From: a virus
Virus genome (UHGV): UHGV-1652597
Direction: 5' to 3' (one strand)
DNA length: 18,470 nt
The number at the start of each line of letters is the position of its first letter. The first letter of the stretch is position 1. The translations under genes and the position numbers were made by a program. Under the pieces are notes generated by a model. The model was not told where the DNA came from and ran no database searches. It saw only the letters and a program-made list of their open reading frames with translations. Positions 5,678 to 9,981 of the stretch are shown here, one piece after another.

Positions 5678-5878
5678 ATGATCCTGAAACAAGATCTGAA
5701 ATGGTCACCGGACGGTATGCGTGTTGAGGTCATTCGGGCCGGTGAGTATGACGACGGGGCGCTTCCTGCCCGGGTGCAGGAGATTGCACTTCAGGCCGGG
5801 TTAGCAGAGCGCGGAACCAGTGCAAAAAGCAGTAAAGCGGCAAAAGAGAAAAAAGCCACGACCAGTAAAGAGGGCTGA
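5678..5878 (+). CDS. Hypothetical small protein with Lys/Ser/Thr-rich C-terminal tail
   Basis: 66-aa ORF between the capsid and head-tail connector genes, same strand and tightly packed; no family recognised. Confidence 0.4.
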   Translation: MILKQDLKWSPDGMRVEVIRAGEYDDGALPARVQEIALQAGLAERGTSAKSSKAAKEKKATTSKEG

Positions 5879-6611: not shown

Positions 6612-7092
6612 TGTTCAGCAGCCCGCCGAGATGCGCTTTAACCGCGCCCGTGTCCGGCGGGCGTTTGTCACGATTGGGCAGCGTCATATGCGTGATGCCC
6701 GTCGGCTGGTGATGCGCCGTGCGCGGTCGGCACCGGGTGAAAACCCCGGTTATCAGACCGGACGCCTGGCTCGTTCGATTGGTTATATGGTGCCGAGAGC
6801 CAGTAAAAAGCGAGCCGGTTTTATGACACGCATTGCCCCTAACCAGCGCAACGGGAAGGGGAACCGGATGATCTCTGGTGACTTCTATCCGGCGTTTCTG
6901 TTTTTTGGTGTCCGGGGAGGAGCAAAACGTCGTCGTAGTCATCATCGTGGTGCATCCGGTGGCAGCGGCTGGCGACTGGCTCCACGTAATAACTTCATGG
7001 TGGAAACTCTTGAAAAGAACCGCAGCTGGACACGCTATTTTCTGGCGCGGGAATTGCGTAAATCACTGAAGCCGGAGCGACGACACAGATGA
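6586..7092 (+). CDS. Putative neck / tail-completion protein (HK97 gp10-like)
   Basis: 168 aa, basic; segment PGYQTGRLARSIGY resembles the D/TG-x-L-x-x-S-I motif I associate with HK97 gp10-family tail components; position between head-closure and tail genes. Confidence 0.45.
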   Translation: MATPFFHVDVQQPAEMRFNRARVRRAFVTIGQRHMRDARRLVMRRARSAPGENPGYQTGRLARSIGYMVPRASKKRAGFMTRIAPNQRNGKGNRMISGDFYPAFLFFGVRGGAKRRRSHHRGASGGSGWRLAPRNNFMVETLEKNRSWTRYFLARELRKSLKPERRHR

Positions 7093-7649
7093 AACTGACG
7101 CCTGTTATTGCTGCGCTGCGTGCCCGCTGCCCGTATTTTGAAAACCGGGTGGCAGGCGCGGCACAGTTCAAAAATCTGCCGGAGGTCGGAAAGCTGAGAC
7201 TCCCGGCGGCGTATGTGGTACCGGGTGATGACTCTCCGGGAGAAAACAAAAGCCAGATCGACTACTGGCAGGAGCTGAAAGAGGGCTTCTCCGTGGTTGT
7301 CATACTGAGTAACGGGCGTGATGAGCGCGGTCAGTTTGCCTCGTATGATGTGGTGGACGATGTCCGGCAGATGCTCTTTAAGGCCCTGCTGGGCTGGAAC
7401 CCGGAAGCGTGCGGTAACCCGATTACCTATGACGGCGGCACGCTGCTGGATCTGAATCGTCATGAGCTGATTTATCAGTTCGATTTTTCGGTCATCAGCG
7501 AGCTGACTGAAGACGATACCCGCCAGCAGGATGATCTGAACAGTCTGGATGAACTGCAAACGCTGGCGATTGATGTTGATTATCTCGAGCCCGGTAACGG
7601 GCCTGACGGCGATATCGAACATCACACCGAAATAACCCTTCCTTCCTGA
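7089..7649 (+). CDS. Hypothetical phage neck/tail protein (positional equivalent of Mu-like gp37)
   Basis: 186 aa; ATGA overlap with the upstream gene; acidic C-terminus; call is based on synteny (two genes upstream of the tail sheath in Mu-like tail modules), not a recognised motif. Confidence 0.4.
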   Translation: MKLTPVIAALRARCPYFENRVAGAAQFKNLPEVGKLRLPAAYVVPGDDSPGENKSQIDYWQELKEGFSVVVILSNGRDERGQFASYDVVDDVRQMLFKALLGWNPEACGNPITYDGGTLLDLNRHELIYQFDFSVISELTEDDTRQQDDLNSLDELQTLAIDVDYLEPGNGPDGDIEHHTEITLPS

Positions 7650-7657
7650 GGATCCTC

Positions 7658-7825
7658 ATGTTTGTCAAACCTGTTAAAGGGCGGTCAGTTCCTGACCCTG
7701 CCCGCGGCGACCTTTTGCCCGCCGAAGGGCGAAATGTTGACGAGAACAACTACTGGCTGCGCCGTGAAGTAGCGGGTGATATCCGGCGCGTGAATAAAAA
7801 GGTGAATACCGATGACGAGCTTTAA
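7658..7825 (+). CDS. Small conserved protein preceding the tail sheath (Mu-like gp38 / DUF2635-like); not in the supplied ORF track
   Basis: Hand-translated 55-codon ORF ATG 7658 to TAA 7823-7825: MFVKPVKGRSVPDPARGDLLPAEGRNVDENNYWLRREVAGDIRRVNKKVNTDDEL. It overlaps the sheath start by 14 nt and resembles the small proteins found upstream of sheath genes in Mu-like tail clusters. Confidence 0.45.
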   Translation: MFVKPVKGRSVPDPARGDLLPAEGRNVDENNYWLRREVAGDIRRVNKKVNTDDEL

Positions 7826-9305
7826 CACCATTCCGTCGAATACGCTGGTTCCGCTGTTTTATGCGGAAATGGATAATCAGGCGGCGAATACTGCACAGGA
7901 CAGCGGAGCATCGCTGCTGATTGGTCATGCCAATAACGGTGCAGAGATTGTTGCCAACAGTCTGGTACTGATGCCGTCGGCAGACTATGCACGCCAGATT
8001 TGTGGTGCGGGAAGTCAGCTGGCGCGTATGGTCGAGGCTTATCGCCAGACCGACCCGTTTGGCGAGCTATATGTGATTGCCGTTCCTGAATCCACAGGCG
8101 CGGCGGCAACGGTTACGCTGACGGTGACCGGGGCGGCAACCGAAACCGGCACGGTGAATGTCTATGTGGGACGTACCCGCGTGCAGGCTCCGGTGACCAA
8201 CGGCGATAACGTCACGACGATTGCCAGCAGTATCAAAGATGCCATCAATGCCGTTCCGGCCCTGCCGTTTACGGCTTCATCTTCGGCAGGCGTGGTCACA
8301 CTGACCGCGCGTCATAAGGGGCTTTGCGGGAATGAAATTCCTGTCAGCCTCAATTACTACGGCTTTGGTGGGGGCGAAGTGCTGCCAGCGGGCGTACAGA
8401 TTGCCGTGGCGACGGGTACCGCCGGAACGGGTGCTCCGGTTCTCACCGGCGCGGTGGCTGCAATGGCGGATGAGCCGTTTGATTATATCGGTCTGCCGTT
8501 CAACGACACGGCCTCCGTTAACACGCTGGTGACCGAGATGAACGATACCAGCGGTCGCTGGAGCTATGCGCGTCAGCTGTATGGTCATGTGTATACGGCA
8601 AAGATCGGCACGCTGTCAGAACTGGTGACCGCAGGTGACCAGTTTAACCAGCAGCACATTACCCTGGCGGGGTACGAAAAAGAGACCCAGACGCCTGCCG
8701 ACGAACTGGCGGCAAGCCGTACCGCCCGCGCAGCGGTGTTTATTCGCAACGATCCGGCACGTCCCACGCAGACCGGTGAGCTGGTGGATATGCTGCCTGC
8801 GCCGAAGGGGAAACGGTTCACGATGACCGAACAACAGACCCTGCTGTCTCATGGCGTGGCAACGGCGTATGTCGAAAGCGGGGTACTGCGCATTCAGCGT
8901 GATGTCACCACGTACAGGAAAAACGCTTACGGGGTTGCGGATAACAGCTACCTCGACAGTGAGACACTGCATACCAGCGCGTATGTACTGCGCAAACTGA
9001 AATCCGTCATTACCAGTAAGTACGGGCGTCACAAGCTTGCCAGTGACGGTACCCGCTTTGGTCCCGGTCAGGCGATTGTCACCCCGGCGGTGATCAAAGG
9101 GGAACTGCTGGCAACCTACCGTCAGCTTGAGCGTGCGGGGATCGTGGAAAACTACGAACTGTTTAAGCAGTACCTGGTTGTGGAGCGTGATGCCAGCGAT
9201 CCGAACCGCCTGAACACGCTGTTCCCGCCTGACTATGTTAACCAGTTGCGTGTCTTTGCCGTGGTTAACCAGTTCCGTCTTCAGTATTCAGAGGAGTCTG
9301 CATAA
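7812..9305 (+). CDS. Contractile tail sheath protein (Mu gpL-like)
   Basis: 497 aa; N-terminus TSFNTIPSNTLVPLFYAEMD is typical of sheath proteins; immediately followed by a tube gene with TAATG overlap. Confidence 0.9.
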   Translation: MTSFNTIPSNTLVPLFYAEMDNQAANTAQDSGASLLIGHANNGAEIVANSLVLMPSADYARQICGAGSQLARMVEAYRQTDPFGELYVIAVPESTGAAATVTLTVTGAATETGTVNVYVGRTRVQAPVTNGDNVTTIASSIKDAINAVPALPFTASSSAGVVTLTARHKGLCGNEIPVSLNYYGFGGGEVLPAGVQIAVATGTAGTGAPVLTGAVAAMADEPFDYIGLPFNDTASVNTLVTEMNDTSGRWSYARQLYGHVYTAKIGTLSELVTAGDQFNQQHITLAGYEKETQTPADELAASRTARAAVFIRNDPARPTQTGELVDMLPAPKGKRFTMTEQQTLLSHGVATAYVESGVLRIQRDVTTYRKNAYGVADNSYLDSETLHTSAYVLRKLKSVITSKYGRHKLASDGTRFGPGQAIVTPAVIKGELLATYRQLERAGIVENYELFKQYLVVERDASDPNRLNTLFPPDYVNQLRVFAVVNQFRLQYSEESA

Positions 9306-9661
9306 TGGCCCGTATCGGGGGAACCTGTTATTTCAAAATTGACGGTCAGCAGCTATCGCTGACCGGCGGCATTGAGGTGCCCATGAACAGGACGGTCAAT
9401 GATGACATCATCGGCCTGGACGGTTCAGTGGACCGCAAGGAAACTCACCGTGCGCCCTATGTCAAAGGGACCTTCAAGGTGCCGAAGAATTTTCCGGTGA
9501 GCAAAATCACCTCGTCTGATGAGATGACCATCACTGCCGAGCTGGCGAACGGTCAGGTCTATGTACTGTCGTCTGCCTGGCTGCACGGCGAAGCGAACCA
9601 TAATGCCGAAGAAGGCACGGTTGATCTTGAGTTCCACGGTGAAGAAGGGGATTACCAGTGA
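9305..9661 (+). CDS. Tail tube protein (Mu gpM-like)
   Basis: 118-aa ORF directly after the sheath gene with overlapping stop/start; size and position typical of the tube protein of Mu-like contractile tails. Confidence 0.8.
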   Translation: MARIGGTCYFKIDGQQLSLTGGIEVPMNRTVNDDIIGLDGSVDRKETHRAPYVKGTFKVPKNFPVSKITSSDEMTITAELANGQVYVLSSAWLHGEANHNAEEGTVDLEFHGEEGDYQ

Positions 9662-9981
9662 TTGAGCTTGTACTTAAAAAACCGATCATCGCCCACAAAG
9701 AAACACTGCATGTGCTGGAAATACGTGAGCCTACGTATGACGAGATTGAGGCGCTGGGGTTCCCTTTCTCTGTTTCACCTGATGGTGGTATGAAAATGGA
9801 CAGTCAGGTAGCGCTGAAATATATCCCGCTTCTGGCCGGGATCCCGCGCTCGTCTGCAGCGCAGATGACGAAGCTGGATATTTTCAAGGCAGGCATGATT
9901 GTAATGCGTTTTTTTACCGGCTTGGAGACGGAAGAGACCTCCGGAAGCGATTCTACAATGTCGCGTGGTTCTGGAAATTAA
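9658..9981 (+). CDS. Tail assembly chaperone (gpG / P2 gpE-like)
   Basis: 107 aa, acidic; located between the tube and tape measure genes; contains an in-frame T7 run at 9909-9915 (candidate slippery site). Confidence 0.7.
   Translation: MIELVLKKPIIAHKETLHVLEIREPTYDEIEALGFPFSVSPDGGMKMDSQVALKYIPLLAGIPRSSAAQMTKLDIFKAGMIVMRFFTGLETEETSGSDSTMSRGSGN

What the first reader, a model, noticed from the sequence alone, without database searches (positions are those of the whole stretch)
7658..7825. Unannotated 55-codon ORF overlapping the tail sheath start
The supplied track has a 60-aa cutoff and misses an ATG-initiated 55-codon ORF that fills the gap between the gp37-like gene and the sheath gene and ends 14 nt inside the sheath ORF. 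Small proteins at this position are conserved in Mu-like tail clusters, and their function is essentially unknown (possibly sheath or neck assembly).
Basis: partly seen in the sequence, partly recalled or inferred. Interest (0 to 1): 0.4.

Follow-up and report, generated by a model that had tools for sequence, protein, structure and literature searches.

The report
Known small tail gene (DUF2635/Mu gp38)
The 55-codon ORF is a real, conserved phage gene of the already catalogued DUF2635 / Mu gp38 family; its function has never been tested, and the evidence here points to a helper for building the contractile tail that does not stay in the finished particle.

Summary
The ORF (7658-7825, +) is exactly as described: ATG start, GAGGA ribosome-binding site, stop 14 nt inside the sheath gene. 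It is a genuine gene. It scores 57 bits against Pfam DUF2635 (cut-off 26.6), is intact in 82 of 82 close relatives, and has dN/dS of 0.04-0.26 in its own frame only.

It is not new. The window is an SfV-type prophage; SfV orf10 has long been annotated "similar to Mu GP38", and RefSeq calls these genes "DUF2635 domain-containing protein". It was missed only because of the 60-aa cut-off.

New points on function:
- A 43-residue folded core carries an unconstrained tail, and that tail contains the sheath gene's Shine-Dalgarno sequence.
- The gene always abuts a Mu-type sheath gene.
- It is retained, under purifying selection, in headless Pseudomonas R-tailocin clusters, so its role lies within the tail.
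- It was not found in the Mu virion cryo-EM or the BZS1 virion proteome, and a probable remote homologue is absent from both data sets for phage 7-7-1.

Best reading: a transient tail (sheath or terminator) assembly factor. Rare fusions to fibre-like domains remain unexplained.

The parts
7648..7652 (+). Shine-Dalgarno sequence (GAGGA) of the DUF2635 gene, 5 nt upstream of the ATG
   Evidence: Read directly from the sequence.
7658..7825 (+). DUF2635 / Mu gp38-family gene, 55 codons plus stop
   Evidence: Pfam PF10948 57.4 bits; PHROG 208; orthologue of SfV orf10.
7658..7786 (+). Codons 1-43: the conserved, folded core (strand 2-5, short bridges, helix 31-39, strand 42-45). Signature positions: P5, G8, D13-P14, L20-P21, G24, V27, W33, R35-R36, G40-D41.
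   Evidence: Alignments A2 and A3; AlphaFold2 block-mean pLDDT 91-94 over residues 1-40; dN/dS 0.04-0.26.
7787..7822 (+). Codons 44-55: variable, predicted-disordered C-terminal tail with no detectable protein-level constraint
   Evidence: pLDDT below 50 from residue 48; dN/dS about 0.45-3 on few sites; tail length and composition vary across the family.
7797..7805 (+). Shine-Dalgarno sequence of the sheath gene (AAAAGGTGA, 6-nt spacing), embedded in codons 47-50 (K-K-V-N) of the DUF2635 ORF
   Evidence: The same arrangement is found in nearly all lineages examined.
7812..7825 (+). 14-nt overlap between the DUF2635 stop and the sheath start. A 3-nt deletion relative to SfV and SfIV lies between 7817 and 7818 and preserves both frames.
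   Evidence: The overlap is 17 nt in 77 close relatives and 14 nt in 4.
7089..7649 (+). Tail terminator gene (Mu gp37/K-like), immediately upstream
   Evidence: Pfam PF23840, 91.4 bits.
7812..9305 (+). Mu-type tail sheath gene, immediately downstream; its start is overlapped by the DUF2635 stop
   Evidence: Pfam PF04984, PF17482, PF17481; PHROG 165.
9305..9981 (+). Tail tube gene (9305-9661) and tail assembly chaperone gene (9658-9981), the rest of the conserved block
   Evidence: Pfam PF10618 and PF10109.

Best explanation
The ORF encodes a member of the DUF2635 / Mu gp38 family. It consists of a 43-residue folded core and a short disordered tail.

Shown directly: it is a real, selected gene of the Mu/SfV-type contractile-tail module. 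It always sits directly against the sheath gene. Its 3' end carries the sheath gene's ribosome-binding site and overlaps the sheath start.

Inferred: the protein is made alongside the sheath and acts only during tail assembly. It would bind sheath subunits (or the terminator) to keep polymerisation or capping orderly, and would be released rather than built into the finished tail. That would make it an assembly factor in the same sense as the tail assembly chaperone. The partner and the holdase mechanism are hypothesis.
For: Identity.

Selection on the protein: core dN/dS 0.04-0.26 against 0.8-9 in control frames; confident fold.

Linkage to the sheath gene:
- The distance from the DUF2635 stop to the sheath start is -56 to +6 nt in all Mu-type loci.
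- The gene stays against the sheath gene when a 1-kb AntA moron (L102) or a hairpin plus T-run (L104, L106, L107) separates it from the terminator gene.
- The sheath Shine-Dalgarno sequence lies inside its last codons.

Role lies within the tail: the gene is retained in headless R-tailocin clusters of P. fluorescens, P. protegens and P. entomophila, which begin exactly at terminator -> DUF2635 -> sheath, with dN/dS 0.24-0.31. SfV-syntenic Rp4 tailocins are functional bacteriocins (PMC4684702).

Not found in the particle:
- Mu virion at 3.3-3.8 A: gp37 alone caps tube and sheath, and gp38 was not resolved. The tail assembly chaperone gp41 was also unresolved (PMC11915804).
- BZS1 virion MS found p11, p13 and p14 but not p12.
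- Probable remote homologue 7-7-1 gp125: absent from MS that detected 3-4 kDa proteins, and absent from the 3.0-3.6 A models.
- No PDB chain matches the family profile.
Against: There is no genetic or biochemical test of any family member. The virion negatives are absences: the Mu paper did no MS, the BZS1 MS used excised gel bands, and 7-7-1 gp125 is only a probable homologue (hhalign probability 40%).

Rare family members carry the domain at the N-terminus of 171-737-aa proteins with Fn3 or fibre-like parts, in neighbourhoods with no sheath gene. That layout looks like a particle-docking domain, not a chaperone.

P2-type contractile tails assemble without such a protein. No interaction partner could be modelled.
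Confidence: 0.5

Rival explanations
1. It is a minor, labile or disordered structural component: a small docking module at the proximal end of the tail or on the sheath surface, with its C-terminal tail displayed outwards. In some phages the same module anchors larger Fn3, lectin or propeller-type fibre proteins.
For: The domain is always at the extreme N-terminus, followed by a variable and expandable tail. Fusions exist: P0165 (DUF2635 + Fn3, 402 aa), P0207 (737 aa), P0237 and P0242. They lie next to head-tail adaptor, Neck1, Gly-rich fibre and Laminin_G_3 genes. The signature residues are kept in the fusions.
Against: It was not seen in Mu at 3.3-3.8 A in either the neck/tail or the baseplate maps, nor in the BZS1 or 7-7-1 virion proteomes. 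The standalone form is retained in tailocins that lack all neck genes, so it cannot be an adaptor or neck dock there. The fusions are few (7 of 361 proteins above 110 aa) and come from short metagenomic contigs.
Confidence: 0.2
2. It is the sheath terminator, as the curated Mu GenBank record labels gp38: a ring that caps the last sheath layer.
For: The AF083977.1 annotation 'putative sheath terminator protein', given without a supporting note; its position between the terminator and sheath genes.
Against: In the Mu virion the gp37 hexamer caps both tube and sheath, and its C-terminal beta-hairpin completes the last sheath ring. No further protein is present. The same architecture is seen in 7-7-1.
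Confidence: 0.04
3. The peptide itself does not matter: the ORF is a translated leader whose only job is to deliver ribosomes to the sheath start (translational coupling).
For: The stop overlaps or abuts the sheath start in all lineages, and the sheath Shine-Dalgarno sequence lies inside the ORF. The tail is unconstrained.
Against: There is strong amino-acid-level purifying selection on the 43-residue core, with invariant W33 and conserved P, G, D and R positions across more than 2,300 cluster representatives. The fold is predicted with confidence. The sheath has its own Shine-Dalgarno sequence, and no RNA structure occludes it. Coupling may be an added role of the tail but does not explain the core.
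Confidence: 0.05
4. It is a chance ORF in an intergenic gap.
For: 92 ORFs of at least 55 aa occur in the window.
Against: Everything listed above: family match, selection in one frame only, synteny and RBS.
Confidence: 0.01

Closest known systems
Phage Mu gp38 (Mup38) and Pfam PF10948 DUF2635 / PHROG 208
   Same: Same family (57.4 bits against a cut-off of 26.6; 38.5% identity to Mu gp38). Same position between the terminator (gp37/K) and the sheath (gp39/L). Same architecture of N-terminal core plus variable tail. The stop overlaps the sheath start.
   Different: 55 aa against 67 aa in Mu. Here an 8-nt gap separates it from the terminator gene, whereas Mu has a 14-nt overlap. The head module here is HK97-type, not Mu-type. 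Function is untested in both.
SfV orf10, ST64B Sb12, and the equivalent genes of SfI and SfII
   Same: Direct orthologues: 96% (SfV) and 85% (ST64B) protein identity, with identical synteny.
   Different: One codon shorter than SfV, because of a 3-nt deletion in the overlap with the sheath gene.
Orf10 / PFL_1215-type genes of Pseudomonas SfV-like (Rp4) R-tailocin clusters
   Same: Same family (67.3 bits) and the same terminator -> DUF2635 -> sheath block.
   Different: They sit in headless bacteriocin clusters rather than a complete prophage. tblastn identity of the window protein to the Q8r1-96 tailocin gene is 57% over residues 1-42.
Tail assembly chaperones (lambda gpG/gpGT, Mu gp41; window 9658-9981)
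   Same: Functional analogy only: a small protein encoded inside the tail operon that is absent from the finished virion (Mu gp41 and gp38 are both unresolved).
   Different: There is no sequence or fold relationship. The position is different (between tube and tape measure), and tail assembly chaperones use a programmed frameshift and act on the tape measure. This ORF is not a member of that family.
Agrobacterium phage 7-7-1 gp125
   Same: Same slot (terminator gp124 -> gp125 -> sheath gp126), similar size (68 aa), best fold match in BFVD, and conserved signature positions.
   Different: It falls below Pfam's threshold; hhalign gives only 40% probability. Homology is probable, not shown.

Membership tests
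DUF2635 (Pfam PF10948) / Mu gp38 family | Scores above the Pfam gathering threshold over the whole domain | tested here: met
   57.4 bits against 26.6; residues 3-47 match profile positions 1-45 of 46. PHROG 208, E 4.5e-25.
DUF2635 (Pfam PF10948) / Mu gp38 family | Detectable homology to Mu gp38 itself | tested here: met
   tblastn finds Mu, D108 and SfMu at 38.5% identity over residues 3-54, E 1e-5. The reciprocal search with Mu gp38 finds the SfV group, E about 1e-6.
DUF2635 (Pfam PF10948) / Mu gp38 family | Conserved core positions (P5, G8, D13-P14, L20-P21, G24, V27, W33, R35-R36, G40-D41) | tested here: met
   All are present in the window protein. W33 is invariant and the others are at least 90% conserved in the 113-sequence alignment.
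DUF2635 (Pfam PF10948) / Mu gp38 family | Encoded between a PF23840-type tail terminator gene and a Mu-type sheath gene | tested here: met
   Window; relatives.
Sheath terminator / tail completion protein (label in the Mu GenBank record) | Forms an ordered cap on the last sheath ring of the mature tail | tested here: not met
   From the literature, not computed here: in the Mu cryo-EM structure gp37 alone caps tube and sheath and gp38 is not resolved. No PDB chain matches the family profile.
Virion structural or decoration protein | Detected in purified particles | tested here: not met
   From the literature, not computed here: not found in the BZS1 virion MS, the Mu cryo-EM, or, for the probable homologue gp125, the 7-7-1 MS and cryo-EM. 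These are absences, so the result is not conclusive.
Tail assembly chaperone (gpG/GT, PF10109 type) | Located between the tube and tape-measure genes, with a programmed frameshift; matches a TAC profile | tested here: not met
   That role belongs to 9658-9981 (PF10109). The ORF has no TAC match.
Transient sheath or terminator assembly factor (proposed function) | Binds sheath or terminator subunits and is required for normal tail assembly | not testable with these tools
No genetics or biochemistry was found in the literature.

The most novel reading that the evidence does not exclude
The DUF2635 core is a portable protein-docking module. In Mu/SfV-type tails and Rp4 tailocins the free form would be a so far unrecognised, dedicated chaperone that holds sheath subunits (or the terminator) until they join the growing tail. 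In some phages without a sheath gene nearby, the same module would anchor Fn3, lectin or propeller-type fibres to the particle.
Probability: 0.25. Interest if true: 0.5.

Novelty: already known. Interest (0 to 1): 0.22.

Why it matters
As a gene call it adds nothing: the family, its position and its 'unknown function' status are all on record. Its value is modest and practical.

Mu gp38 is one of the last unassigned genes of a model contractile tail. The combined evidence narrows the question to a simple experiment. That evidence is: retention in headless tailocins, constant abutment to the sheath gene, absence from three virion data sets, and a tail that doubles as the sheath RBS. The experiment is to delete the gene in a tailocin producer or in Mu and look at the tails.

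People engineering SfV/Mu-type tailocins should keep this small gene, and should note that its 3' end carries the sheath gene's translation signals.

Tried and rejected
- NCBIfam: no model matches.
- PDB sequence searches with the single protein and with a 113-sequence profile: nothing.
- Literature: 'DUF2635' returns 0 papers and 'Mup38' nothing relevant. The SuMu proteomics paper is uninformative. No cryo-EM of a Mu/SfV-type tailocin was found. The BW11M1 tailocin MS concerns the other (Rp1-Rp3) tailocin types, not the SfV-like Rp4 type.
- The L105 'terminator-DUF2635 fusion' is a single stop-codon change (TGA to GGA) relative to L106 and L107, across a spacer carrying a hairpin plus T-run. 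I rejected it as evidence of interaction.
AFDB50 was unavailable.
- Tests for relatedness between the C-terminal parts of the fusion proteins and neighbouring genes (P0207 against the L096 441-aa protein; P0165 against the L099 Laminin_G_3 protein): not significant.
- MT121967.1 was suspected to be a second tailocin but is a partial phage with head genes.
- RNA structure around the sheath RBS (z = +0.46) and promoter/terminator scans: nothing above chance.
- The genome-contig scan with the family alignment failed, and the single-protein scan gave only 2 loci.

Full report
**1. The observation**

ATG at 7658 and TAA at 7823-7825 give 55 codons. A GAGGA Shine-Dalgarno sequence lies at 7648-7652. 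The upstream gene ends at 7649, and the sheath ATG is at 7812, so the two genes overlap by 14 nt.

Length alone is not evidence, because the 55%-GC window holds 92 ORFs of at least 55 aa in six frames. The evidence that it is a gene is independent of length:
- Pfam PF10948 (DUF2635): 57.4 bits against a gathering score of 26.6, E 1.2e-15, covering profile positions 1-45 of 46.
- PHROG 208 ('unknown function'): E 4.5e-25.
- 120 homologues in the word-indexed protein search.
- 2,346 cluster representatives at E <= 1e-3 in the exhaustive profile search.

**2. What the window is, and whether the gene is already known**

The region is 97-99% identical to the serotype-converting Shigella/E. coli phages SfV, SfI, SfII and SfIV. 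It is present in 1,098 of 5,426 complete E. coli genomes.

The window joins an HK97-type head module to a Mu-type tail module:
- Head: TerS, TerL, portal, S78 protease, capsid, gp6-like adaptor, head-completion protein.
- Tail: terminator PF23840, this ORF, sheath, tube, chaperone, tape measure, DNA-circulation protein.

The orthologue is annotated in RefSeq as 'DUF2635 domain-containing protein'. In the SfV record it is 'orf10, similar to phage Mu GP38'. The SfIV and phiP27 records leave the intact ORF uncalled, and in VIT_AJPSC the match overlaps only the sheath gene. So 'unannotated' reflects the 60-aa cut-off of the supplied track. It is not a gap in knowledge.

**3. Is it under selection as a protein?**

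Among 82 close relatives the ORF is intact in all. It has 6 protein variants and 33 DNA haplotypes, and 13 of the 16 polymorphic sites fall at third codon positions.

Nei-Gojobori estimates against SfV, ST64B, EPP-1 and phiP27:

| Region / frame | dN/dS |
|---|---|
| Codons 1-43, ORF frame | 0.04-0.26 |
| Same nucleotides, the other two frames | 0.8-9 |
| Codons 44-52 (few sites) | 0.45-3, i.e. unconstrained |

AlphaFold2 with a 34-sequence alignment gives block-mean pLDDT of 91-94 for residues 1-40. The model has strand 2-5, short bridges, helix 31-39 and strand 42-45, and the tail falls below pLDDT 50 from residue 48.

Across 113 diverse members W33 is invariant. P5, G8, D13, P14, L20, P21, G24, V27, R35 and R36 are at least 90% conserved.

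In a census of 361 family proteins the domain sits 0-5 residues from the N-terminus. Median length is 61 aa. The median tail is 16 aa and is rich in Ala, Lys, Pro and Glu.

**4. What the tail is**

In the window the sheath gene's Shine-Dalgarno sequence (AAAAGGTGA, 7797-7805, spacing 6) is codons 47-50 (K-K-V-N) of this ORF. In nearly every lineage examined the sheath Shine-Dalgarno sequence lies in the last 3-8 codons and reads as NKGA, SKEK, KKGA, PKED, AKE and so on. The Lys/Gly/Glu-rich tips are therefore largely the sheath RBS read in another frame.

A 3-nt deletion in the window relative to SfV and SfIV falls inside the overlap and shortens both proteins by one residue.

There is no RNA structure (z = +0.46) and no promoter or terminator signal above chance. 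The gene sits inside the late operon, and the sheath has its own accessible RBS.

**5. Genomic linkage**

I built custom HMMs for sheath, terminator, adaptor and DUF2635 and ran them over 181 loci. In every Mu-type locus the ORF's stop lies -56 to +6 nt from the sheath start; the typical overlaps are 1, 4, 11, 14 or 17 nt.

Its distance from the terminator gene varies more, from -17 to +63 nt. In L102 it reaches 1,034 nt, because an AntA/AntB antirepressor moron is inserted there. In L104, L106 and L107 a hairpin plus T-run separates the terminator gene from DUF2635. The tightest linkage is therefore to the sheath gene.

The block travels with at least three head types: HK97-like, lambda-like with a decoration protein, and Mu-like.

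**6. The most discriminating test: headless tailocins**

EU982300.1 (P. fluorescens Q8r1-96) is an R-type tailocin cluster: prtR ... holin ... lysozyme ... cinA-recA. It has no capsid, portal, terminase, adaptor or head-closure genes. Its structural block nevertheless starts terminator (100.9 bits) -> DUF2635 (67.3 bits) -> sheath.

In P. protegens and P. entomophila L48 a P2-type tailocin set is followed directly by a Mu/SfV-type set. The second set begins exactly at terminator -> DUF2635 -> sheath, and the P2-type set has no DUF2635.

A search with the tailocin protein returned 214 homologues at E <= 1e-5; every source name in the 120 listed is a Pseudomonas. Within the tailocin lineage dN/dS is 0.24-0.31, against 0.8-2.7 in control frames. 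SfV-syntenic 'Rp4' tailocins are functional bacteriocins (PMC4684702).

The function is therefore intrinsic to the Mu/SfV-type tail. It is not connected with head-tail joining or the neck.

**7. Is the protein in the particle?**

- Mu virion cryo-EM (3.3-3.8 A, extended and contracted): portal gp29, adaptor gp36, terminator gp37, sheath, tube, tape-measure C-terminus and the baseplate proteins were all modelled. The gp37 hexamer caps both tube and sheath, and its C-terminal hairpin completes the last sheath ring. gp35, gp38 and gp41 'could not be resolved' (PMC11915804). gp41 is the tail assembly chaperone. No MS was done.
- BZS1 virion MS: 13 proteins were found, including p11 (terminator-like) and p13-14 (sheath, tube), but not p12, which is the DUF2635 protein. 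The method used excised gel bands, so this is weak evidence.
- Phage 7-7-1: the best fold match in BFVD (probability 0.99) is the 68-aa gp125, encoded between terminator gp124 and sheath gp126. It misses Pfam's threshold, but it aligns to the family profile over 54 columns with the signature positions kept (hhalign E 3e-4, probability 40%). The 7-7-1 virion proteome used whole-lane slices and a six-frame database. It detected 24 proteins, including ones of 3.2 and 4.3 kDa, together with gp124, gp126 and gp127, but not gp125 (PMC3517404). The 3.0-3.6 A neck and tail models do not contain gp125 either (PMC12796354).
- No PDB chain matches the family profile.

Each of these is an absence, but together they contradict the 'putative sheath terminator' label in the curated Mu record. 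They favour a factor that is not retained in the particle.

**8. Best explanation and its limits**

The most economical reading is a small assembly factor of Mu/SfV-type contractile tails. It would be made alongside the sheath, act transiently on sheath subunits or the terminator, and be absent from the finished particle.

Shown: gene reality, family membership, protein-level selection, constant abutment to the sheath gene, retention in tailocins, and the dual-coding tail.

Inferred: non-virion status (from absences), the partner, and the holdase mechanism. I give the assembly-factor reading about 0.5.

**9. What does not fit**

Seven of 361 family proteins exceed 110 aa. Four of them come from short metagenomic contigs with no sheath gene. 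In these the domain is at the N-terminus of 171-737-aa proteins carrying an Fn3 domain or fibre-like segments:
- P0165, 402 aa, DUF2635 + Fn3
- P0207, 737 aa
- P0237, 268 aa
- P0242, 171 aa

They lie beside phrog_442 head-tail adaptor, head-closure, Neck1, Gly_rich_2 and Laminin_G_3 genes. That is the layout of a particle-docking domain.

Their core domains are 52-57% identical to one another, and the P0165 domain is 56-65% identical to sheath-linked ones, so they do not form a distinct clade by domain sequence. I could not establish the tail type of these phages or any relationship among their C-terminal parts.

This keeps a structural or docking rival alive at about 0.2. It is also the basis of the most novel reading not excluded: a portable docking module used as a free chaperone in one context and as a fibre anchor in another.

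**10. Verdict**

The feature is already known as a family and is routinely annotated, and its function remains untested. Interest is low to modest. The useful outcome is a sharper, directly testable hypothesis for Mu gp38-type proteins, plus a practical note that the gene's 3' end carries the sheath gene's translation signals.

Noticed in passing
window 7812-7825 (between 7817 and 7818): A 3-nt deletion (ATA) relative to SfV and SfIV lies inside the 14/17-nt overlap. It removes one residue from both the DUF2635 protein (56 to 55 aa) and the sheath (498 to 497 aa). The 14-nt form occurs in 4 of 81 close relatives scored.
   Followed up: yes
window 7797-7805; relatives: The sheath gene's Shine-Dalgarno sequence is embedded in the last codons of the DUF2635 ORF in nearly all lineages. 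The Lys/Gly/Glu-rich C-terminal tips of the family are therefore largely a dual-coding by-product.
   Followed up: yes
L181 6866-7048; L183 and L185 10001-10183: The DUF2635 gene is retained, under purifying selection, in headless SfV-like R-tailocin clusters of fluorescent Pseudomonas. The adjacent P2-type tailocin clusters lack it.
   Followed up: yes
L096 3036-4244 (P0165), L097 1580-3793 (P0207), L098 769-1575 (P0237), L099 2958-3473 (P0242): Rare proteins have a DUF2635 domain at the N-terminus followed by an Fn3 domain or fibre-like segments (P0207 has an Asp-box-like motif by eye). They lie next to head-tail adaptor, Neck1, Gly-rich fibre and Laminin_G_3 genes, with no sheath gene on the contig. 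This is unexplained under the chaperone reading.
   Followed up: partly
window 7089-7649; Mu, SfMu and D108 RefSeq records: The tail terminator (PF23840; shown to be the terminator by the Mu cryo-EM) matches PHROG 209, whose label is 'portal protein'. RefSeq Mu, SfMu and D108 carry 'portal protein' on gp37. This looks like a propagated misannotation.
   Followed up: partly
L002 2070-2240 (SfIV), L088 2501-2662 (phiP27), VIT_AJPSC record: The ORF is intact but uncalled in the SfIV and phiP27 records. In VIT_AJPSC (96% protein identity over residues 1-54) only the sheath gene is annotated under the match; that DNA was not fetched.
   Followed up: yes
L102 6970-8003: A 1-kb insertion carrying an AntA/AntB antirepressor-type gene (93 bits) sits between the terminator gene and DUF2635. 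The DUF2635-sheath junction is left intact.
   Followed up: yes
L104, L106, L107 (spacer between the terminator gene and DUF2635); L105 1850-2680: A GC-rich hairpin plus T-run, resembling an intrinsic terminator, lies between the tail terminator gene and DUF2635 in one lineage. In L105 a single TGA-to-GGA change fuses the two ORFs across this spacer.
   Followed up: partly
L186 36733-36939 (Agrobacterium phage 7-7-1 gp125): A 68-aa protein in the same slot is the best fold match in BFVD and a probable remote homologue. It was not detected in the published virion proteome or cryo-EM models.
   Followed up: yes
P0120 (protein database); window frame 7662-7772: One database cluster (2 members) is a frameshifted version of this gene that runs into the +1 frame. 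It may be a sequencing error or a rare pseudogene.
   Followed up: no
window 5678-5878: A 66-aa ORF directly after the capsid gene has no Pfam match. ST64B has a small ORF (Sb7) in the equivalent position. In a Pseudomonas relative (L184) a 141-aa HeH-domain protein occupies that slot. The DUF2635 model shows weak, non-significant fold resemblance to YqbF/HeH-type proteins.
   Followed up: no
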